Sequence record: PP496998.1 | Length of the DNA: 64,000 bases | Strand: one strand, 5' to 3' | From: Escherichia phage EC.W14-3 | Position numbers and translations under genes: made by a program | Notes under the pieces: generated by a model | What the model saw: only the letters and a program-made list of their open reading frames with translations | Told to the model about the DNA's origin: nothing | The model's database searches: none | In this document: one piece after another, positions 39,244 through 57,045 of the stretch | Layout: each line of letters begins with the position of its first letter | Numbering within the stretch: the stretch's first letter is position 1

Positions 39244-40785
39244 TTAGTAACTCTGATTCCATCTGCTTACGTTTGCCTCATACAGAGAAGCACTTCCGTA
39301 GCTAACGTCATGCTTAGAGCGACCACGATGTGTAACAGAGCACGCTGAATAGCGCATTGCATCCATTAAGTCATCATGTTCTTTAATAATCTTACCAACC
39401 TTACGGTGATATCTAGCTTTCTCTTCGAATAGCTTAGCATTAGCGGCTGTGTTAAAGATTTTAAAGCGTCCACTCATCATTCTTTCTCGGATATCTGTGA
39501 TTCCCGGTTCTACAAAGAAGTTCTTTTTACCATCCATTCCAATTTTGTTGTAGAAGGTCTCACTCTGTACGTTAACTCCTGCATTCTTATAGAATTGAGC
39601 AACAGATGAGCCACTACCTTTCTCAATATTGTCCGCATCGTGCGGTAGGATGACAGGAATCCACTGACCACGACCATTAATAGCTGGAGCATGATACACT
39701 GGAGTAAAGCCACCTTCTTTATATGAGTCGTAAACATAGATAGTATCCGTGTTTGCATCGTAAGCTGTCCAAACAGCAGCAGTTGGGTGATCAATACCAA
39801 TATCAATTGCACAGACACGTTTCCACGTATCAGGAATTTCGAATGGTTCACATTTAATTGTGTCATCCGATACATCATAAATCAAACCACTTCCTAACAA
39901 TGGCATACCTTTCGAACGCATCTCTAACTGCCACGCTGGAATACCTTCAGTCATATCTTTTATATCTTGGTCAGTGATATGTCCACCTAGGTCTGCATGA
40001 GCATCCCACCAAGAAGCGTTCTGGAAATATAGAGAACCTGTGTTCTCATCCCCTTCGCCTTTCATAAATTTATCTACCAGTTCAGTTAAACCGTTCTCTG
40101 GTGTAGCTGTAATTGTAACTAGACCTTTAGTTGTGAGTGTACGTGTGACGCACTGTGCGAATATAGCCATAGACTCGTATGGATCTTCTTCGTCTAACCA
40201 AATGTAGTCAACTGTTGCACCCATCAATGTGTGTTCACCCTGTTGGGTTGAACGGAATTCTAATGTACTTAAACCGTCAAACTCCCCTCTCTCATTTTGA
40301 TGTTTGATTTGTACGATTTGAAGTTTGTTACCATCTCGTTCTATCGTGTCAATGACGATAGCATCACGAGGAATGACACCTGTCCCCAATAAGTTTGTAT
40401 CCTTTCCGATAGGTGTACCAAACAATTCCTTTTGCAATACTTTCCTTGTGGAATCCCCTGTAATACCAACTGCCCATGCTAAGATAGGTCTTTTAAATTT
40501 ATATCCTGTCCACCAAGTTGGGTAGCGACCTGTGACATGACAAGCAAACTCGTATGCCTCGCTATAAGATTTACCAACACGGTTCGCTGCACACAAGAAT
40601 CTAAAGCGATGCTTCAATCCTGCTGCATAAAATTTCTTTTGGAAGTCATACGCCTTGAAAGACAAAATCTTATTATACTTCCTCCATTGGTCACGCTCTT
40701 TCAACATATTCAATAGTGCTTTCTTTTCCTCTACACTAAGATTGTTACCAGTTAGAGCTTCATAAATTTGTTTATCTAATGACAT
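39244..40785 (-). CDS. terminase large subunit
   Basis: Walker A-like CAANRVGKSY, Walker B-like IWLDEED, C-terminal nuclease-like region; 513 aa. Confidence 0.75.
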   Translation of the reverse strand: MSLDKQIYEALTGNNLSVEEKKALLNMLKERDQWRKYNKILSFKAYDFQKKFYAAGLKHRFRFLCAANRVGKSYSEAYEFACHVTGRYPTWWTGYKFKRPILAWAVGITGDSTRKVLQKELFGTPIGKDTNLLGTGVIPRDAIVIDTIERDGNKLQIVQIKHQNERGEFDGLSTLEFRSTQQGEHTLMGATVDYIWLDEEDPYESMAIFAQCVTRTLTTKGLVTITATPENGLTELVDKFMKGEGDENTGSLYFQNASWWDAHADLGGHITDQDIKDMTEGIPAWQLEMRSKGMPLLGSGLIYDVSDDTIKCEPFEIPDTWKRVCAIDIGIDHPTAAVWTAYDANTDTIYVYDSYKEGGFTPVYHAPAINGRGQWIPVILPHDADNIEKGSGSSVAQFYKNAGVNVQSETFYNKIGMDGKKNFFVEPGITDIRERMMSGRFKIFNTAANAKLFEEKARYHRKVGKIIKEHDDLMDAMRYSACSVTHRGRSKHDVSYGSASLYEANVSRWNQSY

Positions 40786-45682: not shown

Positions 45683-45710
45683 TTGACATGATTTTCCTTT
45701 ATAGTAATAT
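45683..45710 (+). promoter_or_regulatory. sigma70-type promoter
   Basis: TTGACA, 16 nt spacer, TAATAT. Confidence 0.5.
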
Positions 45711-45839
45711 GAATCCCGTAGTAAGCAGTAAGTAACAACAAGTAGTAAAAACTCCTCGATAGGTGATTAGCATCACGGTAAAAGGCTTCAACGGGGAGCG
45801 GTAGGAATACCGACAGTAAGACGCACAATGAAGGTGCTA

Positions 45840-45849
45840 CGCTCTTTAA
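45840..45849 (+). repeat. CGCTCTTTAA motif, copy 1 of 4
   Basis: further exact copies at 45950, 46078 and 46311, each followed by an A-rich run. Confidence 0.5.
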
Positions 45850-45888
45850 AAATCAGGCTAGAAAGTGAAAATATTCTTAAAAAGAGTA

Positions 45889-45917
45889 TTGACACCGAAA
45901 ACAGCCTGATTCATAAT
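45889..45917 (+). promoter_or_regulatory. sigma70-type promoter (duplicate of the promoter at 46192)
   Basis: TTGACA, 17 nt spacer, CATAAT; about 50 bp near-identical to 46180..46240. Confidence 0.55.
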
Positions 45918-45949
45918 AAGCACTCAGTCAGCGATGACTTAAAAAATCC

Positions 45950-45959
45950 CGCTCTTTAA
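45950..45959 (+). repeat. CGCTCTTTAA motif, copy 2
   Basis: exact 10-mer. Confidence 0.5.
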
Positions 45960-46077
45960 AAACTTATCATCTTGCCTTTTCGCATAGATTCACGCGAGAT
46001 AAGGGAAAAGAATAAAAGAAGATGATAAAAAAGAGATTGACAAGCTAACACGATGTGTTAAGCTGTAAATGCTACAC

Positions 46078-46087
46078 CGCTCTTTAA
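46078..46087 (+). repeat. CGCTCTTTAA motif, copy 3
   Basis: exact 10-mer. Confidence 0.5.
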
Positions 46088-46191
46088 CAATATGAATCAT
46101 AAGTTAAGCATCACCGCTTAATCTTCAATCAAATAAAGCTGATTGATATATCCTCCCAATAGCGGGAACGACGAAAAAGATTAAAAAGTGG

Positions 46192-46220
46192 TTGACAGCG
46201 AAAACAACATGATTCATAAT
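46192..46220 (+). promoter_or_regulatory. sigma70-type promoter (duplicate of the promoter at 45889)
   Basis: TTGACA, 17 nt spacer, CATAAT. Confidence 0.55.
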
Positions 46221-49697: not shown

Positions 49698-50087
49698 ATG
49701 TTGACATTGACTATTTATTATGAGGCAGGGAATCAGCCAACCGCATGTAAGGCTTTAGTTGCGGATACCGTGATAAATAGAATGGCCCAACGAAAACTGA
49801 CCGCTGAACAGGTGATAAGACAAAAGAACCAGTTTGAGTGGATTCCGGTACTATTAAAACAGGAGAAACCTTATAAACGTTATGTAAAGCTGATTCGTGA
49901 TAAAAATCCGATGACTAAGCAAGCCATTGGAGAAAGCGAGCGGCTGGCTAAACGTGCCCTTAAGAAGAATTATGTTCCGCTGTACAGTGGGACTTACTTT
50001 CAGAGTAAGAGCGAAGGGGTGCCAAAATGGTATGCCAATCCTATGTATTGTGGTGATTTAGTATTTGATAATAGCTCTAGGGAATAA
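49698..50087 (+). CDS. cell-wall hydrolase, SleB/CwlJ-like (Hydrolase_2) domain
   Basis: TIYYEAGNQPTACKALVADTVINRM resembles the conserved N-terminal block of SleB-type hydrolases. Confidence 0.45.
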   Translation: MLTLTIYYEAGNQPTACKALVADTVINRMAQRKLTAEQVIRQKNQFEWIPVLLKQEKPYKRYVKLIRDKNPMTKQAIGESERLAKRALKKNYVPLYSGTYFQSKSEGVPKWYANPMYCGDLVFDNSSRE

Positions 50088-50286
50088 TCACTAGTGCCAG
50101 ATTTGACAAACTAAATTCCTTTATAAACCAACCACTTAGTAAATTTATTGAAAAAGATGGTAGTATTCTGGGACTATGGGTAATGCTCTGTATATAGACC
50201 CTTTGAAAATTTCTTAGAAAATAAGTTTACTAAATATAACTTACTTAAATAATATTACTTTTAATCTCTGATAAAGGGTAAATAAT

Positions 50287-50583
50287 ATGACTTTAGAAGT
50301 ATATAAATTCCTTTTTGTAAGCTGTTTAACTATCAGCGTTCTAGGATTTATTGTTCTAAGAAACAAAGCAGCAAGCTGGGAAAGAATGTATAAATCCCTA
50401 GTCCGAGTGGATGAGATGTATAATGAGAAGGTTAAAGTAACACTCAACGATCTTATTATGCAAGTTGAGGACAGAAACAAGCGTCTTCAGAACCTCAATC
50501 ACGAAGTGTTACGCCTTGCTCGTGCTAATGAAGACTTGCGAATAGCTATTGCTAAGCAGCAGGAGATTAACAGTGATAATTGA
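50287..50583 (+). CDS. membrane protein with N-terminal TM and coiled coil
   Basis: FLFVSCLTISVLGFIVL then heptad-like region. Confidence 0.4.
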   Translation: MTLEVYKFLFVSCLTISVLGFIVLRNKAASWERMYKSLVRVDEMYNEKVKVTLNDLIMQVEDRNKRLQNLNHEVLRLARANEDLRIAIAKQQEINSDN

Positions 50584-50584
50584 T

Positions 50585-50809
50585 ATGAACAACGCCCCAA
50601 AGGTTTTAACTCTTGGGGATTTAGAATCAGGTGATGTATTCCAGTTCCCTCTGGATGGGGAGAATTACTATATGTTATCTAGTCAGAAGTTTGGGACAAC
50701 AGACAAGAGAAGTTATATCAATCTTTCCTGTGGCGTTATTGCAACGGATGAAGGTAATACAGTCATCAAGAAGGTCAGCAATGCTCGGCTTACCAATAAG
50801 GTGGATTAA
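50585..50809 (+). CDS. GDVF-family small protein, paralog A
   Basis: shared pattern L.LGDL..GDVF ... YYM ... G with seven other ORFs. Confidence 0.45.
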   Translation: MNNAPKVLTLGDLESGDVFQFPLDGENYYMLSSQKFGTTDKRSYINLSCGVIATDEGNTVIKKVSNARLTNKVD

Positions 50810-50811
50810 CA

Positions 50812-51048
50812 GTGAAAGTTAATATTAAATCCGATCGTACAATGCTTCGCTTAAACAACATGAAGCCGGGCGTTCTATTTGAGCGTAAAGAATCCCTTTA
50901 CATTAGAACCGACACATTGTACGCAGACAATTATGTCAACTGTGTTGATGTGGTAACTGGAAAGCTCATTCCTTTTAAACGGGATGAAGTCTGCCAAGTA
51001 CGCAGCGATCTCCACATAACTAACATAGAGGCTAAAGATGAAGATTGA
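50812..51048 (+). CDS. GDVF-family small protein, paralog B (divergent)
   Basis: PGVLF ... YI ... VNCVDVVTG pattern; tandem position. Confidence 0.4.
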   Translation: MKVNIKSDRTMLRLNNMKPGVLFERKESLYIRTDTLYADNYVNCVDVVTGKLIPFKRDEVCQVRSDLHITNIEAKDED

Positions 51049-51295
51049 TTTGAAGGTAAATGAACCATCTTTGTGTGTTGGTGATCTCAAACTTGGAGAT
51101 GTATTCCAAATCAGGGAAACACGAGCAGATTTCTACATGGTTGTTCAGCTATTTACCTCACAGATTGAAGAGACCAAGCCTTCTGATGGGGGTTGTGTCG
51201 TCCTTAGTCTGACAAATAAGCAAGTCCTTAAGCTTAGCTCGAAAAGCAAGGTTGTTCTTCTTCATGATGTTGTTATTACTAACAAGGGCAAGTAG
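51038..51295 (+). CDS. GDVF-family small protein, paralog C
   Basis: VGDLKLGDVFQ ... FYMVV. Confidence 0.45.
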   Translation: MKIDLKVNEPSLCVGDLKLGDVFQIRETRADFYMVVQLFTSQIEETKPSDGGCVVLSLTNKQVLKLSSKSKVVLLHDVVITNKGK

Positions 51296-51514
51296 ATGGA
51301 AATTAAAGTAGTTGATTATCCTAAATATGCAAATGCAGAAGATGTTAAAGGTGGTGATGTTTTCTCTTACGACAGACGTTTCTGGCTGATGTTAGAAGAT
51401 AAAACTCCCGATGGTTTATGTAAGGCCGCCAATCTGAACAGCGGTTCTGTTGAAGTCTTCGGTCTATCAACCACTGTTATGCCACGCCCTGATCTGTGTT
51501 TATCCCAAAAGTAA
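51296..51514 (+). CDS. GDVF-family small protein, paralog D
   Basis: VKGGDVFSY ... FWLML ... ANLNSGSV. Confidence 0.45.
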   Translation: MEIKVVDYPKYANAEDVKGGDVFSYDRRFWLMLEDKTPDGLCKAANLNSGSVEVFGLSTTVMPRPDLCLSQK

Positions 51515-51522
51515 CATCGACT

Positions 51523-51609
51523 TATAGCCCTTGTGTTTATCAGAGGGCTATGTGAGGGTGTTCCTCATTAACTTATTAATTCAGGCATATGCCACACCGC
51601 TAGGGAGAG
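51523..51609 (+). repeat. conserved intergenic element, copy A (hairpin ATAGCCCT..AGGGCTAT + GTGAG; GCTAGGGAGAG box)
   Basis: same components recur at 56671..56760. Confidence 0.45.
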
Positions 51610-51872
51610 CTTGCTCGAACATCCGGTGTTAGACTAAAACCTGTTCAATTTCGGTAGACTTTCCACTACGTAGGGGTACGTATTGGTTTGGGATTCAGGA
51701 GATCTCCTAGGGGTAGGAGGTCTTCACCAGTTGGGATAAGAGATAGCTCTAGAACCTGAACTCTTAGGCAGAGAGGGTCGGCAATGAGTACGAGGTCAGA
51801 ATTAGCCTCCTGACTAGGGCTATCCCTTATATCAACTGGCAATAATGCCTCCACTAATAAAGAGAGAACGTT

Positions 51873-52013
51873 ATGAAGAAGTCAACCAAGAGTATGAACC
51901 GTCCTGAGCGTATGGATGCAGTAGCAAATGGTGCACTGAAGATCGAGTCTGCCATGCTGCGTCTGATGGGTAACATCCGTAAGCGTCAAGGTGGTTGGGT
52001 TTACAATAACTGA
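51873..52013 (+). CDS. small basic protein (46 aa)
   Basis: ATG after AGAGAGAA; translation checked by hand; below ORF-track cutoff. Confidence 0.3.
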   Translation: MKKSTKSMNRPERMDAVANGALKIESAMLRLMGNIRKRQGGWVYNN

Positions 52014-52226
52014 TTTAATAAAAGGCTGCCTAGAAATAGGTGGCCTTTGTTGTTTTAATTAAGGGTCAACTCTTACTTAAACTAACAACGGGTGTATGGT
52101 ATTGACAGGCATCGGCACGGAACTTGTTACCAACAAGGTTGGCGAATCAAGACCTCTGTGAAGCTCCGAAGAAATCAAGGCAGGTTCGACTCCTGCTCCC
52201 CGACCAAATCAGCAAGAGGTGCTTAT

Positions 52227-52580
52227 ATGAGAAGCATGGTTAAAGATTGGGTAACTAAATCAGGTCTTCGTGCTGTGATTATGCACATGAACGACTCCCA
52301 CTTTTGTGGATATGTAGAGCTACCAGACAGCTTAAAACATAAAAACTTCACCGGATATAACGGGAATGAAGAAGTTTGTTATGTAAGTGTTCATGGTGGT
52401 GTCACATGGCAAGATACCCTTGAAGAGATGGATGGTTTAGATACAATCGGATTTGATTGTGCCCATGCAGGTGATAAGACACGGTTCAACCCTAACGGGG
52501 TTCCAAGAACAGAAACGTTCTGCATCAACGAATGCGAACAAATGGCTGAACAACTAAGAGATCTCGAATCAAATGTCTAA
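52227..52580 (+). CDS. hypothetical protein
   Basis: internal ATG (MRSMVKDW) with AAGAGGTG SD; the upstream part of ORF 52092..52580 is probably promoter/leader. Confidence 0.4.
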   Translation: MRSMVKDWVTKSGLRAVIMHMNDSHFCGYVELPDSLKHKNFTGYNGNEEVCYVSVHGGVTWQDTLEEMDGLDTIGFDCAHAGDKTRFNPNGVPRTETFCINECEQMAEQLRDLESNV

Positions 52581-52745
52581 GCAAACAATCAAACATACGC
52601 AAGCTGGTTACTCTTATATCAACTCTCCTTGTTGTGGTGCTCGTGTGAATCTGGTTAAGGAAGAGGTTCGTATCGTTCAGCGTGGCGCTACTGTTGTTCG
52701 TTCATGCTGTGTCTGTGGTAATGACATTTTTATCAAAGGTAAAGT

Positions 52746-52997
52746 ATGAAAAACTTCCAAGCTGCACCAATAACTAAAGTGATCGAAGTTGACGGTGTAA
52801 TGATGACTGTTCCTCTGAACACTCGTTACATTGCAATTGACAAGATGGGCTATGTATGGGCTTGGAAGATCAAGCCTAGTTATAACGCACTGTTTGATGA
52901 GTTTGTTTGTACTGGTACTTACAGTCCTACATTCTTGGGTTTATTTGGAGAGTTTGATGGTAAGCATAAAATCATCACTCTCCCTGCTTGTGCTTGA
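52746..52997 (+). CDS. hypothetical protein
   Basis: ORF track. Confidence 0.35.
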   Translation: MKNFQAAPITKVIEVDGVMMTVPLNTRYIAIDKMGYVWAWKIKPSYNALFDEFVCTGTYSPTFLGLFGEFDGKHKIITLPACA

Positions 52998-53177
52998 GGT
53001 TATTATGTTCAAGTGGTTTAAACGTTTCTTCCATCTCCATGATTGGGAGACAATAAAAGAAATTCGTTTACACATATATAATGAGATTGGTCAAATAGAA
53101 GACACAGGTACTCGTTATATACTTCGATGTAAAACATGTGGTCATATCACCAAGCGAGATATGATCTAAATAATTCT

Positions 53178-53253
53178 GCGCTCTTAGCTCAATGGATAGA
53201 GCAGTAGCCTTCTAAGCTATTGGTTACAGGTTCGAGTCCTGTAGGGCGCACCA
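53178..53253 (+). tRNA. tRNA-Arg, anticodon UCU
   Basis: hand-folded cloverleaf: 7-bp acceptor stem (one G-U), D-arm GCTC/GAGC, anticodon loop CTTCTAA, T-arm ACAGG-TTCGAGT-CCTGT, discriminator A and encoded CCA. Confidence 0.8.
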
Positions 53254-53393
53254 CATTTAGGGCTAGTATGGGTGCGGCACCAGAGTTAGTGTATCCCTGT
53301 TGAGGCAAGTGCTTTTATAACAGTGGGAATTACTTTCTTAGTGAGCTTCTGGTTCGATTCCAGATAGTCCACCAAATCTAATAGGAGGTAATT

Positions 53394-53693
53394 ATGAGTT
53401 GGGGTGGTGTAATATCCTTAATCTGTATCTTCCTTGTCTGTATAGCCCTTACAGGCTGCGTACAGAGTCGTCCTGATGGATGGTGTGCAGTAGCAGTGGA
53501 AGGTGTTTGTGTTTCTCGCTGGCATAAAGGTAAGAAGGTTCCTTCTGGTGAAATTGATATGCGCTGGAACGGAGCAACCTGCTCTAATGCTAACCCTTCT
53601 ATCAACGAAGAGAAATCTACACCGGATAATGTTGTGATTGATACAGCGTTGTGGTGTGGTGGCTCTGTAACAACAACCGGTAAGGAGTGGTAA
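53394..53693 (+). CDS. lipoprotein (candidate envelope-modifying / superinfection-exclusion protein)
   Basis: signal peptide with lipobox LTGC (ICIFLVCIALTGC); Cys-rich mature part. Confidence 0.45.
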   Translation: MSWGGVISLICIFLVCIALTGCVQSRPDGWCAVAVEGVCVSRWHKGKKVPSGEIDMRWNGATCSNANPSINEEKSTPDNVVIDTALWCGGSVTTTGKEW

Positions 53694-53694
53694 T

Positions 53695-53943
53695 ATGACA
53701 GCTCATTATTGGAATACAAAGAAGCTTCTTGAGGAGATGGCTGGGGGTAGTAGAGTACAGCTAATCTCTATGCTTCGAATGGATGCTCGCTCTTTACGCT
53801 TTCAAGTGAAGATTGGTAACTTCAGCGATGGTCTTTATTATACCTTGAAGGAAAGAATTAAGAAAACTCACTTCATCATGTACGGAATCAAACCGAGAAC
53901 GTACGTTAACTACATGTATTGGGATACATGCTACGATAGTTGA
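53695..53943 (+). CDS. hypothetical protein
   Basis: ORF track. Confidence 0.35.
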   Translation: MTAHYWNTKKLLEEMAGGSRVQLISMLRMDARSLRFQVKIGNFSDGLYYTLKERIKKTHFIMYGIKPRTYVNYMYWDTCYDS

Positions 53944-53950
53944 GGCTATT

Positions 53951-54172
53951 ATGAAATTAGATTCTAAACAATCACTTAAAACTGTTGAACTATCCACCCT
54001 TCCAAATGGAAGTATTTTTGGTCATGATAAACACTTCTGGATTAAAACAGACTACTTGAACGATGGGTATATCACCTGTGTCAATCTTTGGAATGGCTCA
54101 GTGGATGGCTACCGCCCTAGTGCAAAAGTAGTCCCTCAGCCTGATGCAAAAGCTATAGGTTTGGTCTACTAA
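53951..54172 (+). CDS. GDVF-family small protein, paralog E
   Basis: LPNGSIFGHDKHFWIK ... CVNLWNGSV. Confidence 0.45.
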   Translation: MKLDSKQSLKTVELSTLPNGSIFGHDKHFWIKTDYLNDGYITCVNLWNGSVDGYRPSAKVVPQPDAKAIGLVY

Positions 54173-54181
54173 GGAGTTCAT

Positions 54182-54355
54182 ATGAGCTGTTATGGTGGAG
54201 GTGAAGTTTATGATGACGATGATATGGAATCTAATGGGGAATGCCCTGATTGCGGGTGTGAGACGTTTGATGGTGTATCAGTATATCCTGCCTGTAGTTA
54301 CTCACCAGTGATCTGTAAAACATGTGGTGATCAGCCATGTGACCAATCTTGTTAA
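54182..54355 (+). CDS. small Cys-rich protein (57 aa, zinc-ribbon-like)
   Basis: CPDCGC ... CKTCGDQPCDQSC; below ORF-track cutoff. Confidence 0.3.
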   Translation: MSCYGGGEVYDDDDMESNGECPDCGCETFDGVSVYPACSYSPVICKTCGDQPCDQSC

Positions 54356-54364
54356 GAGGTTAAT

Positions 54365-54622
54365 ATGGACGGAGAAATGGTTTCATATATAGCCATGACC
54401 TACTTGGTAGGTTGGTGGGTTGCAGTGTTGGTGGTGAAGTGGTGCTTCAAGAGAGGGAAGTTTAAAACTTTCCTACATACTCCTTGGGGGAACCCTGACG
54501 AAACTGCAATGTGGGTTGTGATCTTCTTCTGGCCTGTTATCTTATTATTCTTTATCATCTTCCCAATCCTACTACTATTTGACACTGTATTATGTAGGCT
54601 TACTAATTTTATAGTAAAGTAA
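54365..54622 (+). CDS. small membrane protein with two TM helices
   Basis: two hydrophobic segments separated by a basic loop. Confidence 0.4.
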   Translation: MDGEMVSYIAMTYLVGWWVAVLVVKWCFKRGKFKTFLHTPWGNPDETAMWVVIFFWPVILLFFIIFPILLLFDTVLCRLTNFIVK

Positions 54623-54912
54623 TATCGTGAAGGACTCTTACGAGAGTCCTTTGAGATAGGACTTCAGATCTCCTATCAAACTAACATTCATGTAACTAGC
54701 CCATAAGGGCGTTACCCTTTAATAACCCAGCCCACTAAGGGGGCGGGAGTTTAGTGCTGGATGAGCATAACGCTTATTCCTACAAAGGCAACCGATTGTT
54801 AGATCTTACATGCAATATTAATTAATAGGATAAGGGAGGATTCGTCCCCTCCCCCTATTTTATTGAATCTTTATCTAAGCAAGTCTTATATAAACATTTA
54901 ATCGGAGGGTAT

Positions 54913-55134
54913 ATGACAAAATGTGAAACACTTATCAAACATAGTCCGTATCCTTTCAGAAGGGTAACTCTTAGTCAGATAGAGGAAGAAGCCAAAAAGC
55001 ACTACACTAATTGGGAGGATATGAACTTCCTTCAGTGGAATAGCGCTCATGGAGATCTGTCTTCAGACATGATAAGGCATTCGCATTATCTGATAATTGA
55101 TGGTGTGTTAGTTAAAAGTCGACATGGGTGGTAA
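54913..55134 (+). CDS. hypothetical protein
   Basis: ORF track. Confidence 0.35.
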   Translation: MTKCETLIKHSPYPFRRVTLSQIEEEAKKHYTNWEDMNFLQWNSAHGDLSSDMIRHSHYLIIDGVLVKSRHGW

Positions 55135-55447
55135 AATGAAAGCTCGAAGAACTATATGGACTCCGATGCAGATTGAAAACCTTCGGAGACTAATCAAAGA
55201 GTACTCTGTCCAAGAGGTTGCTCAGATTATGAATGTAACGGAGAATGCAGTTAATACAGCTTGCACTAAGTTCGGTATATCAAGAGCTGTAATCCGAGTT
55301 AAGTGGTCTAAAGAAGAAGATCAGTTCCTTATCCGTAATGCTGGGTTCATGTCTATTCAGAGAATGGCTGACATGCTCGGTAGAAGTTATGCTGCTGTAC
55401 AGAACAGGGCATGTATGCACCTTAACATTAGCCTCAAACTTAAATAG
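55124..55447 (+). CDS. DNA-binding protein with two HTH-like repeats (putative)
   Basis: internal duplication SVQEVAQIMNVTENAVNTACTKFGI / SIQRMADMLGRSYAAVQNRACMHLNI. Confidence 0.35.
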   Translation: MGGKMKARRTIWTPMQIENLRRLIKEYSVQEVAQIMNVTENAVNTACTKFGISRAVIRVKWSKEEDQFLIRNAGFMSIQRMADMLGRSYAAVQNRACMHLNISLKLK

Positions 55448-55455
55448 GAATCAAT

Positions 55456-55701
55456 ATGAAGATCATCCCAAAGAAAAAGGATAATACGGTACGATTGGAA
55501 ACGATCATTCCCGGAAACCCCTTTGTGGTACAGCACGGAAGTGTCTCTCCTCAATATTATATGAGGGTTGAAAATGCTTCTGGTAATATCCGTATAGCCA
55601 GTGGCTGGGTTCCTGTGGTAAACCTTTCCACAGGTGTACTATCTGTTAAAGGTCTTGATGATCAGGTAGAAATGATTCGTATGTCAGTGGTTCAGGAGTA
55701 A
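55456..55701 (+). CDS. GDVF-family small protein, paralog F
   Basis: IIPGNPFVV ... YYMRV ... VNLSTG. Confidence 0.45.
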   Translation: MKIIPKKKDNTVRLETIIPGNPFVVQHGSVSPQYYMRVENASGNIRIASGWVPVVNLSTGVLSVKGLDDQVEMIRMSVVQE

Positions 55702-55703
55702 TT

Positions 55704-55952
55704 ATGGGCACTATTCATATTAAAGTTAAGAGCAAAGAGGAAACAGTCCTCCGTGTTAAAGATCTAAATATGTCAGATGTGTTCACTCTCCAAGAGTGCC
55801 ATCTTCAAAAGATTTATATGCTTACAGCTAAGAGCAGGGGCTGTCAACCTGCTGGAGCTGTTAACTTAGGCACTGGAGAACTGCGTGTCATCTCTGGTGA
55901 TATGGTTGTTGGTGAGAAGTTTAGTAAGGCTGAAATTATCTTAACTCCATAG
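55704..55952 (+). CDS. GDVF-family small protein, paralog G
   Basis: VKDLNMSDVFTL ... IYML ... VNLGTG. Confidence 0.45.
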   Translation: MGTIHIKVKSKEETVLRVKDLNMSDVFTLQECHLQKIYMLTAKSRGCQPAGAVNLGTGELRVISGDMVVGEKFSKAEIILTP

Positions 55953-56183
55953 GAAAACAAATGAGACGTAAAGCATATTCTTATGACGATATGATTAACC
56001 AGAAAGGCTTTGGTCAACGGCAGCCTGACGGTTCAATTATCTGGTTCGTAAACGGACAGAAAAAGGTAGCTAAATAAGCCCTCTTCTCTCCCCCTTTTAG
56101 TACTATGACGCCTCTCTGTGGGCGGCCCAATTTGCGTAGGGAATTCCCTCTACGCAGCCATGACTTTTTAAGGAATTTCCCCT

Positions 56184-56417
56184 ATGTCTAAAGTAAGCGC
56201 AATCGATGCAATCCGTCAACCGTTCCAGTTCCAATCCAAATCAACCCAAACCTTCAGTGAGCCTAAGCAAATTCGCTTGGGTGGCACAGAGAAGACTGTG
56301 TTTGATCTGGCTAAAAACAAGAGCGTTACCGTAGTTGATGGTGGCACTCTGGTTAACGTTTCCCATCGTATCCGCACTGGCAAAACTGCCAAAGATCGTG
56401 CTAAGAAAGGTGAGTGA
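56184..56417 (+). CDS. hypothetical protein
   Basis: ORF track. Confidence 0.35.
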   Translation: MSKVSAIDAIRQPFQFQSKSTQTFSEPKQIRLGGTEKTVFDLAKNKSVTVVDGGTLVNVSHRIRTGKTAKDRAKKGE

Positions 56418-56659
56418 TGAAAATAGGGAAACCAGCTAAGGATGTTCTAGCGAAGATTGGTGATATCTCTATTGGGGAAGTTTTCTCAGCTGAGCACTTT
56501 TCAAGTTACTACATGAGAATCCCTGACACTAAAGTTGAGGGTTGCATCATCCCTGCCAACGCAGTTAACCTGAACACAGGACACCTGTCTGCATTCAAAC
56601 CTGATTCACAGGTTACTGAAATCAAAGATGCCTACCTCGCCTTTGGTGGGGATAAGTAG
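56414..56659 (+). CDS. GDVF-family small protein, paralog H
   Basis: IGDISIGEVFS ... YYMRI ... VNLNTG. Confidence 0.45.
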   Translation: MMKIGKPAKDVLAKIGDISIGEVFSAEHFSSYYMRIPDTKVEGCIIPANAVNLNTGHLSAFKPDSQVTEIKDAYLAFGGDK

Positions 56660-56670
56660 AGTAACATCTA

Positions 56671-56760
56671 TAGCCTTCTTCTGAGGGCTATGTGAGTTAT
56701 TCTGACTCAACTAACCTAATCTTAATATATTTCCCGTATGGGGCCGATGCTAGGGAGAGG
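56671..56760 (+). repeat. conserved intergenic element, copy B
   Basis: hairpin ATAGCC..GGCTAT + GTGAG, GCTAGGGAGAG, GTTCCTCA and ACATCCG boxes shared with copy A. Confidence 0.45.
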
Positions 56761-57045
56761 AGTGTTCCTCAAACATCCGTCGGATAGATATTTTAAGAGC
56801 AGGTTATCCACAGATATTGGGTAATATCTTTTTGGATTTAAAGCTTGGCTCTTTTCGGAGAGTCCTTTTTTAAATTCAATGAGAGGAAATATGTCTAAAT
56901 TAGATTTAAAACTGCTAGCAGCAGCGGTAGTGATTTGTGCACTAGCACTGGTAACGCAGAGAACATCTGGATTTATTCAGTGTTTCTTTTCTGGGCAATC
57001 CACTTATCAGTGGGTTATTGACGAGTGTAAACAACAGGAGTAAGT

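What the first reader, a model, noticed from the sequence alone, without database searches (positions are those of the whole stretch)
50585..56659. Eight-member family of about 80-aa 'GDVF' proteins, four in tandem and four dispersed
ORFs at 50585, 50812, 51038, 51296, 53951, 55456, 55704 and 56414 share a pattern: a hydrophobic/Leu position, then (G)D.(F), an aromatic-aromatic-Met/Leu triplet about 12 residues later, and VNL..G / ANL..G, with otherwise divergent sequence. So many diverged paralogs in an early/accessory region suggests diversifying selection, such as host-takeover or anti-defence binders with different targets, or a small beta-barrel scaffold. No function can be read from the sequence.
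Basis: seen in the sequence. Interest (0 to 1): 0.55.

Follow-up and report, generated by a model that had tools for sequence, protein, structure and literature searches.

The report
Eight-copy small beta-barrel phage gene family
Eight small early genes of this phiEco32-like coliphage are real, anciently diverged copies of one uncharacterised SH3-like beta-barrel protein that many unrelated phages also carry in tandem arrays, but its function is still unknown.

Summary

An exhaustive search finds about 1,490 clusters. These include N4 gp21, two-domain fusions, and tandem arrays of 2-15 copies in unrelated phage contigs (GC 29-61%). Relatives carry 4-11 copies. The family slots are lost or swapped for roughly 50%-identical alleles more often than neighbouring genes are. 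True orthologues, however, are under strong purifying selection (dN/dS 0.09).

"Diversifying selection" holds only as gene and allele turnover. The host-takeover or anti-defence binder role remains an inference.

The parts
   Evidence: GTG start preceded by GGAG. It is annotated as XDJ04183. Leave-one-out HMM 20.1 bits against a shuffle maximum of 10.0. phrog_9955 E 4.6e-27.
50812..51048 (+). m2, 78 aa; phrog_16423; most degenerate motif (PGVLF)
   Evidence: Leave-one-out HMM 28.5 bits. AlphaFold model pLDDT 83.8, all-beta. phrog_16423 E 1.4e-48, with cross-hits to PHROGs 6570, 7832 and 7431.
51038..51295 (+). m3, 85 aa, overlaps m2 by 11 nt; phrog_9955; carries an insertion in the beta3-beta4 loop
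   Evidence: Leave-one-out HMM 24.8 bits. Only 54-59% identical to its counterpart in all five relatives compared.
51296..51514 (+). m4, 72 aa; phrog_6570; last gene before a structured 358-nt gap
   Evidence: Leave-one-out HMM 31.0 bits. dN/dS 0.01-0.06 against four relatives.
53951..54172 (+). m5, 73 aa; phrog_6570; stands alone
   Evidence: Leave-one-out HMM 30.6 bits. dN/dS 0.08-0.15. Replaced by 40-42%-identical alleles in Ptacy1479 and IMEP8.
55456..55701 (+). m6, 81 aa; phrog_7431; directly after the sigma-70 region-4-like regulator gene
   Evidence: Leave-one-out HMM 31.1 bits. dN/dS 0.06-0.10. Regulator identified.
55704..55952 (+). m7, 82 aa; phrog_12612
   Evidence: Leave-one-out HMM 28.1 bits. 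51-55% identical alleles in four relatives and 85% in phiEco32.
   Evidence: Leave-one-out HMM 40.1 bits. AlphaFold model pLDDT 81.2. Absent from phiEco32, NJ01, Ptacy1479 and IMEP8, and 92% identical in EP335.

Best explanation
SHOWN. The eight genes are translated, selectively maintained early genes of a Kuravirus. They encode eight anciently diverged copies (14-37% identity) of one small domain of about 75 residues with a six- to seven-stranded SH3-like beta-barrel. The domain belongs to a very large, uncurated, phage-borne superfamily. That superfamily repeatedly forms tandem gene arrays and two-domain fusions. The copy set turns over between closely related phages.

INFERRED (most likely mechanism). 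The barrel is a stable scaffold. Its strongly conserved residues are mostly hydrophobic or turn glycines, which I infer to be core and turn positions; no solvent-accessibility calculation was made on the models. Its variable strands and loops would form different binding surfaces. Each paralogue would then bind a different partner, most likely a host protein, soon after infection. The array would act as a toolkit of small stoichiometric inhibitors or adaptors for host takeover and/or neutralising host defences. Gain, loss and allele swapping of individual copies would adapt the toolkit to different host strains.
For: Real genes:
- Every copy has a Shine-Dalgarno sequence, and the packing is tight or overlapping.
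- dN/dS is 0.09 over 16 orthologue pairs.

One family: leave-one-out HMMs, PHROG cross-hits, and exactly eight hits in the whole genome.

Fold:
- The two AlphaFold models (pLDDT 81 and 84, pTM 0.69) have the same strand order.

Scaffold and surface pattern:
- Across 129 diverse members, the low-entropy columns are I4, L15, L18, G21, V23, F24, Y33, M34, V51, L53, G56, L58, F61, V67 and L75.
- Almost all other columns exceed 3 bits of entropy.
- There is no conserved catalytic-type residue set.
- pI ranges from 4.9 to 9.2, so there is no uniform nucleic-acid-like or DNA-mimic charge.

Early timing: sigma-70 promoters lie upstream, and the SU10 and phiEco32 counterparts are in the early class.

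Turnover:
- The five Gordonclarkvirinae relatives (phiEco32, NJ01, EP335, Ptacy1479, IMEP8) carry 7-11 copies.
- 24 of 40 family gene-by-genome cells are absent or below 75% identity, against 29 of 110 for neighbouring genes. Fisher p is 2e-4, but the cells are not independent.

Generality:
- 1,492 clusters at E of 1e-3 or better.
- N4 gp21 scores 60.7 bits.
- Arrays of 2-15 deeply diverged copies occur in unrelated contigs.

Circumstantial:
- In other phages, members lie within 1-5 kb of an Acb2/Tad1-hairpin gene, a Lar restriction-alleviation gene and a NADAR gene.
- Gordonclarkvirinae are reported as highly resistant to tested defence systems with no known inhibitor (PMC11990801).
- The phiEco32 early cluster is described as likely host-takeover genes (PMC8948821).
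Against: - No member has any experimental characterisation, and no partner is known.
- There is no detectable homology to any known inhibitor or anti-defence family in Pfam or NCBIfam.
- The SU10 proteomics table lists no product of family size among the early proteins detected.
- Low dN/dS in orthologues is not the classic arms-race signature.
- Some polar positions are semi-conserved (D17, D/E22, N52, T55, D64). They could form one shared site, which would argue for a common ligand rather than different targets.
- The anti-defence neighbours come from 3 of about 11 sampled contexts, with no background control.
- The window's own early region contains no recognisable anti-defence gene.
Confidence: 0.4

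Rival explanations
1. The proteins are nucleic-acid-, ribosome- or RNA-polymerase-binding regulators. They would use the barrel as KOW, Tudor or CarD-type domains do, modulating host or phage transcription or translation. The paralogues would tune different steps.
For: - The best structural neighbours are the ribosomal L2 C-terminal domain, the eIF5A/EF-P KOW-like domain, Spt5 KOW, CarD and the UvrD C-terminal Tudor domain bound to RNA polymerase.
- The best Foldseek PDB hits are eIF5A and EF-P.
- EFP_N appears as a sub-threshold Pfam hit for 2 of 129 members.
- m6 sits directly after a sigma-70 region-4-like regulator gene.
Against: - No member has a significant KOW or EFP_N match.
- Net charge at pH 7 runs from -2.5 to +1.7, and no conserved basic residues are seen.
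- The gp79 homologue, the known phiEco32 sigma-70 inhibitor, is unrelated (hhalign probability 0.4%).
Confidence: 0.2
2. Adjacent paralogues are subunits of one hetero-oligomeric assembly and not independent binders. The arrays would encode parts of a single multi-barrel complex, and the two-domain fusions would be the covalent version.
For: - About 20 of the top 150 representatives are two-domain fusions of 125-184 aa.
- Genes in the arrays are translationally coupled or overlapping.
- Arrays recur in unrelated phages.
- A 3,223-aa phage protein carries many weak copies of the motif.
Against: - Copy number varies freely, from 1 in the first 30 kb of N4 to 15 in one contig and 7-11 within one subfamily.
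- Single copies are lost or swapped without loss of their neighbours. That fits poorly with obligate stoichiometric subunits.
- m5 and m8 stand alone.
Confidence: 0.15
3. The copies are dispensable, largely redundant accessory genes carried along in a recombination-prone early region, with no distinct targets.
For: There is high presence/absence variation between near-identical genomes. No phenotype or function is known.
Against: - Each copy is under purifying selection as strong as its neighbours (dN/dS 0.09 against 0.10).
- The paralogues have stayed distinct at 14-37% identity and have not been homogenised or lost.
- The same array architecture is kept in phages of very different GC content and type.
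Confidence: 0.1
4. The similarity is chance, or the ORFs are not genes.
For: None beyond the low pairwise identity (17-28% to the first sequence).
Against: Leave-one-out HMM scores lie far above all shuffles. PHROG hits reach E 1e-27 to 1e-48. Every copy has a Shine-Dalgarno site. Orthologues are under purifying selection. Both AlphaFold models are confident.
Confidence: 0.01

Closest known systems
phiEco32 early proteins phi32_95-98, 104, 109 and 113-115, and their SU10, NJ01 and EP335 counterparts
   Same: They are orthologues or co-paralogues in the same early-region slots. The family HMM finds 9 copies in phiEco32, 10 in NJ01 and 11 in EP335. All are annotated as hypothetical.
   Different: The set differs between genomes. 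phiEco32 lacks m1 and m8 but has three extra copies (phi32_97, 98, 109). The m3 and m7 slots hold alleles only 51-59% identical in most relatives. None has been studied, and no paper found describes them as a family.
Bacteriophage N4 gp21 (74 aa, in the segment after RNAP II genes gp15-16; I recall these as middle genes)
   Same: It is a clear member of the same domain family (60.7 bits, full length), with a similar predicted structure in BFVD.
   Different: It is a single copy in the first 30 kb of N4 examined, not an array. Detectable close relatives are limited to N4-like coliphages (16 records). It is also uncharacterised.
SH3-like small beta-barrels of the translation and chromatin machinery (ribosomal L2 C-terminal domain, eIF5A/EF-P N-terminal KOW-like domain, Tudor, PWWP, FeoA, CarD)
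Anti-defence and host-takeover gene islands of phages (such as Acr/Aca loci and early-region inhibitor clusters) and viral 'gene accordion' expansions
   Same: Shared features are small size, early expression, an accessory character, strain-to-strain turnover, clustering, and occasional proximity to known anti-defence genes in other phages.
   Different: Those islands usually hold unrelated proteins. Here one fold is multiplied. Unlike an accordion of recent duplicates, all copies are old (maximum 37-47% identity within arrays). No inhibitory activity has been shown.

Membership tests
PHROG families 9955, 16423, 6570, 7431, 12612 (all 'unknown function') | Full-length match to the family HMM | tested here: met
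   E-values run from 4.6e-27 to 1.4e-48 with full-length coverage. Cross-hits between the five PHROGs, and to 7832 and 8365, link them into one superfamily.
SH3-like small beta-barrel fold class | Five or six antiparallel strands forming a small closed barrel, with structural similarity to known SH3-like domains | tested here: inconclusive
KOW / EF-P N-terminal domain (Pfam KOW, EFP_N) | Significant match to the Pfam profile, including the KOW glycine motif | tested here: not met
   None of the eight has a hit. Among 129 diverse members, EFP_N appears only twice, at E 0.095 or worse.
Known anti-defence or anti-restriction protein families represented in Pfam (Acb2/Tad1, Lar, NADAR and similar) | Profile match to the family | tested here: not met
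   No Pfam or NCBIfam family is matched by the eight or by 129 relatives. The association is by neighbourhood only, in 3 sampled contigs. No dedicated anti-defence library was available.
phiEco32 gp79 (inhibitor of sigma-70-dependent transcription, about 82 aa, same phage group) | Sequence or profile similarity to gp79 | tested here: not met
   The EC.W8-1 gp79 homologue (L002 1896-2135) against the family profile gives hhalign probability 0.4%. The family HMM gives no hit on it.
Host-takeover or anti-defence binder (functional class) | Demonstrated binding to, or inhibition of, a host factor, or a phenotype on deletion or expression | not testable with these tools
   This needs pull-downs, toxicity assays, deletion mutants or multimer modelling against host proteins. 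None could be run here.

The most novel reading that the evidence does not exclude
The 'GDVF' barrel would be a previously unrecognised, phage-wide modular binder scaffold. It has about 1,490 or more sequence clusters and no Pfam or NCBIfam model. It occurs as arrays of up to 15 copies, as two-domain fusions and possibly as giant multi-repeat proteins. On this reading phages diversify it, as cells diversify ankyrin or SH3 modules, to neutralise many different host factors, including immune systems. In Gordonclarkvirinae these arrays would be the missing explanation for the reported broad resistance to defence systems without any known inhibitor.
Probability: 0.2. Interest if true: 0.75.

Novelty: new member of a known kind. 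Interest (0 to 1): 0.5.

Why it matters
Phage early regions are the main reservoir of undiscovered host-takeover and anti-defence proteins, and most of their genes are orphans that cannot be compared with anything. Here one recognisable fold accounts for eight genes, about 6% of the 123 annotated features of this genome. It also accounts for arrays of up to 15 genes in unrelated phages, yet it has no entry in the curated domain libraries.

That makes it a tractable handle. One profile HMM now marks thousands of candidate effector genes. The natural variation in copy set between near-identical Kuraviruses, some of them in the BASEL collection on E. coli K-12, gives ready-made material for linking individual copies to host range or defence evasion.

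If the proteins turn out to be ordinary redundant accessory genes, the practical gain is only better annotation.

Tried and rejected
- Back-translating the 129-sequence alignment to scan viral contigs failed because no stretch was conserved enough.
- The AlphaFold-database Foldseek library was not available.
- A genome-contig scan with a temperate-phage member found no relative.
- tblastn with m5 or N4 gp21 reaches only close relatives, Kuravirus-like or N4-like. Wider distribution therefore had to come from the exhaustive profile search and from contig look-ups.
- A PDB sequence-profile search gave only chance-level hits, the best being E 0.035 to rotavirus VP4.
- P0124, a 1,315-aa cadherin-repeat protein, was rejected as a false positive driven by repeats.
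- The gp79 homologue and four other early proteins of 69-83 aa were tested as possible hidden members and rejected.
- The weak HMM hit at window 40040-40207 (10.5 bits, partial) was rejected.
- Literature searches for any description of the family, of N4 gp21, or of Kuravirus early paralogues found nothing.
- Cluster look-ups gave no source names for ten distant members.
- Rfam found only the tRNA in 44-58 kb.
- A DNA-mimic idea was dropped because the proteins are not uniformly acidic.
- A recent 'gene accordion' was dropped because no pair exceeds 37% identity.
Full report
**Identity of the window**

Region 50000-57000 is 100% identical to Escherichia phage EC.W8-1 (PQ030848.1, 76,408 bp). 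This phage belongs to Kuravirus, subfamily Gordonclarkvirinae, the phiEco32-like podoviruses with C3 morphology. About 145 related records match at lower identity. Window position equals record position minus 12,408. All eight ORFs are annotated there as hypothetical proteins.

**Checking the observation**

The eight ORFs are present on the + strand. Pairwise identity is low, at 14-37%, so I tested significance directly.
- An HMM built from seven members scored the eighth at 20.1-40.1 bits. For 1000 shuffles of that member the mean was about -1 and the maximum 10.0 or less. No shuffle reached the real score for any member.
- An HMM of all eight scored exactly those eight at 80-95 bits among 367 six-frame ORFs of the window. 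The next ORF scored 10.5 bits on a partial match.
- The remaining 12.4 kb of the genome has no hit.
- Profile-profile comparison rejected five other early proteins of similar size, including the homologue of the known phiEco32 inhibitor gp79 (probability below 1%).
- Independently, the eight fall into five PHROG families (9955, 16423, 6570, 7431, 12612) at E 1e-27 to 1e-48, with cross-hits that link them.

Two starts need correcting.
- m1 most likely begins at GTG 50573 (78 aa). This is the annotated start, 78-aa homologues begin MIIDMN, and the 25-nt RBS and start context is repeated in front of m2.
- m8 begins at ATG 56417, overlapping the upstream stop codon.

**Are they genes?**

Each has a Shine-Dalgarno sequence 5-10 nt upstream. 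The clustered copies are separated by 2, -11, 0 and 2 nt. Nei-Gojobori dN/dS between EC.W8-1 and five relatives, for orthologue pairs of at least 70% identity, is 0.09 for family members (16 pairs) and 0.10 for neighbouring genes (80 pairs). They are protein-coding and under strong purifying selection.

**Timing**

Three near-consensus sigma-70 promoters lie at 45683-46220 on the same strand. This matches the three early promoters described for SU10 and phiEco32. SU10 CDS 69-125 are classed as early genes, and that range includes the m1 orthologue SU10_0114 (PMC4281155). The phiEco32 early cluster is described as the most diverse part of the genome and as likely host-takeover genes (PMC8948821). 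Early expression of these particular genes in EC.W8-1 is inferred, not shown. The SU10 proteomics table lists none of them.

**Structure**

AlphaFold2 was run with family alignments.
- m8: pLDDT 81.2, pTM 0.69.
- m2, the member with the weakest motif: pLDDT 83.8, pTM 0.69.

**A much larger family**

Pfam and NCBIfam have no model for the eight or for 129 diverse relatives.

An exhaustive profile search of 1.84 billion representatives found 1,492 clusters at E of 1e-3 or better.
- Most are single-domain proteins of 66-87 aa with the consensus MKI...L.dL..GDvF....YYmkTd....cVNL.TG.l..f..d..V.pv.a.l.i.
- About 20 of the top 150 are two-domain fusions.
- One repeat protein is a false positive.
- Two giant phage proteins carry many weak copies.

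N4 gp21 is a strong member (60.7 bits). BFVD structure matches include uncharacterised proteins of 7-11, GAP52, Vp_R1, Morganella MP2, Proteus Myduc, Erwinia TropicalSun and others.

Contig look-ups for twelve distant members show that tandem multiplication is typical of the family.
- Runs of 2-5 adjacent copies occur in contigs with 29-58% GC. One of these is a temperate siphovirus with an integrase and an S24 repressor. Another is a 103-kb phage contig with topoisomerase, ligase and gp59-like genes.
- A 61-kb contig has 14-15 copies within 5.6 kb.
- Within every array examined the copies are old, with median identity 28-34% and maximum 37-47%.

**Variation among close relatives**

The family HMM finds these copy numbers.

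| Phage | Copies |
|---|---|
| phiEco32 | 9 |
| NJ01 | 10 |
| EP335 | 11 |
| Ptacy1479 | 10 |
| IMEP8 | 7 |
| Salmonella phage PKM.Hi.22.6 | 6 |
| Salmonella phage 7-11 (right 45 kb) | 4 |

Gene-by-gene comparison shows a bimodal pattern for family slots. A copy is either at least 84% identical, or about 31-71% identical, or absent. Examples:
- m3 is 54-59% identical in all five relatives.
- m7 is 51-55% in four of them.
- m8 is absent from four.
- m4 and m5 are replaced in Ptacy1479.

In total 24 of 40 family cells are absent or below 75% identity, against 29 of 110 for neighbouring genes. Fisher p is 2e-4, but this is descriptive because the cells are not independent. The array between the regulator gene (55124-55447) and m7 holds 2 genes here and 3-5 in the five Gordonclarkvirinae relatives. 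Diversity therefore arises by gene and allele turnover, not by elevated substitution within an allele.

**What the sequence says about mechanism**

Across 129 members the low-entropy columns are hydrophobic positions and two glycines (G21 and G56, each at least 97%), plus F24 and V67. Nearly all other columns exceed 3 bits of entropy. I infer that the conserved positions form the barrel core and its turns; I could not compute burial from the models.

No conserved Cys, His, Ser, Lys or Arg positions suggest catalysis or metal binding. A few polar positions are semi-conserved (D17, D/E22, N52, T55, D64). They may be turn caps or a small common site, and I could not map them in three dimensions. 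pI ranges from 4.9 to 9.2, which argues against a uniform DNA-mimic or nucleic-acid-binding role.

The best-supported reading is a stable scaffold with variable binding surfaces, multiplied so that different copies bind different partners early in infection. Circumstantial support:
- Members in other phages lie near an Acb2/Tad1-hairpin gene, a Lar gene and a NADAR gene.
- Gordonclarkvirinae are reported as highly resistant to tested defence systems without known inhibitors (PMC11990801).

None of this is a test. I put the mechanism at about 0.4.

**Rivals**

- A KOW/Tudor-like role on RNA, ribosome or RNA polymerase (0.2). It rests on weak fold neighbours and is weakened by the charge and motif data.
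- A hetero-oligomer of neighbouring copies (0.15). It is suggested by the fusions and weakened by free copy-number variation.
- Redundant accessory genes (0.1). This is weakened by purifying selection and the long-term maintenance of distinct copies.
- Chance or non-genes. Excluded.

**Comparison with what is known, and verdict**

The family is catalogued only as unknown-function PHROGs. I found no paper that describes it, its expansion in Kuraviruses, or N4 gp21. It is a member of the SH3-like fold class at the level of predicted structure. It is not a member of KOW/EFP_N, of any Pfam anti-defence family, or of the gp79 family.

I rate it a new member of a known kind: a multi-copy family of small early phage proteins on a common fold. 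Interest is moderate at 0.5. The function is unknown, but the family is unexpectedly large, forms arrays, and is absent from curated libraries.

Noticed in passing
window 51515-51872 and 56660-56890: The two non-coding gaps that follow m4 and m8 share a hairpin (TATAGCC(C/T)T...AGGGCTATGTGAG; the exact 14-mer occurs at 51543 and 56683 only) and a second block (GCTAGGGAGAG...AACATCCG). Both gaps fold much better than shuffles (z -3.8 and -4.4). The second gap ends in a terminator-like hairpin at 56847-56864. Rfam has no match. They may be processing or termination elements that close the two gene clusters.
   Followed up: partly
L027 8838-14421 (ENA ERZ16268292 scaffold_2832, 61-kb contig, GC 32%): This is an array of 14-15 family members within 5.6 kb, interrupted by one 305-aa gene. 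It is the largest array seen. The copies are 17-47% identical to one another.
   Followed up: partly
L024 6481-16152 (Logan SRR29078269_4801); also P0247: A 3,223-aa protein in a phage-like contig scores 71.5 bits in total against the family HMM, through many weak 'PGD.F...Y.V....V.nL.TGe' repeats. These follow an N-terminal region that looks GNAT-like by eye. A 1,920-aa relative (P0247) has the same build. They may be giant multi-repeat versions of the domain.
   Followed up: partly
window 45683-46220: Three near-consensus sigma-70 promoters lie within 540 nt on the + strand (TTGACA-16/17-TAATAT or CATAAT; 10-11 of 12 matches). They correspond to the early promoter cluster described for phiEco32 and SU10.
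   Followed up: partly
window 52573-52749, 53005-53169, 54182-54355: Three small Cys-rich ORFs have CxxC pairs. Two of them share an 18-nt repeat that encodes CKTCG(H/D), at 53128 and 54314. They may be a second small paralogous family, zinc-ribbon-like, in the same early region.
   Followed up: no
window 55124-55447: This 107-aa protein has a sigma-70 region-4-type helix-turn-helix (Pfam Sigma70_r4_2, E 3.6e-7) and is annotated 'transcriptional regulator, D5-like' in relatives. It sits directly upstream of the m6-m7 array, whose length varies from 2 to 5 genes among EC.W8-1 and the five Gordonclarkvirinae relatives.
   Followed up: partly
window 50287-50583 and other small ORFs of PQ030848.1: Several tiny ORFs in the GenBank record carry implausible names ('DNA helicase' for a 98-aa protein, and 'terminase', 'DNA polymerase B region' and 'integrase' for ORFs of 87-187 aa). 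The 98-aa 'helicase' has no Pfam match. These are probably annotation carry-over errors.
   Followed up: partly
window 53178-53253, 53394-53693, 49698-50087: The early region also holds a tRNA-Arg(TCT), a Pfam Phage_lipoprotein family member (E 9e-36) and a cell-wall hydrolase (Hydrolase_2) gene.
   Followed up: no
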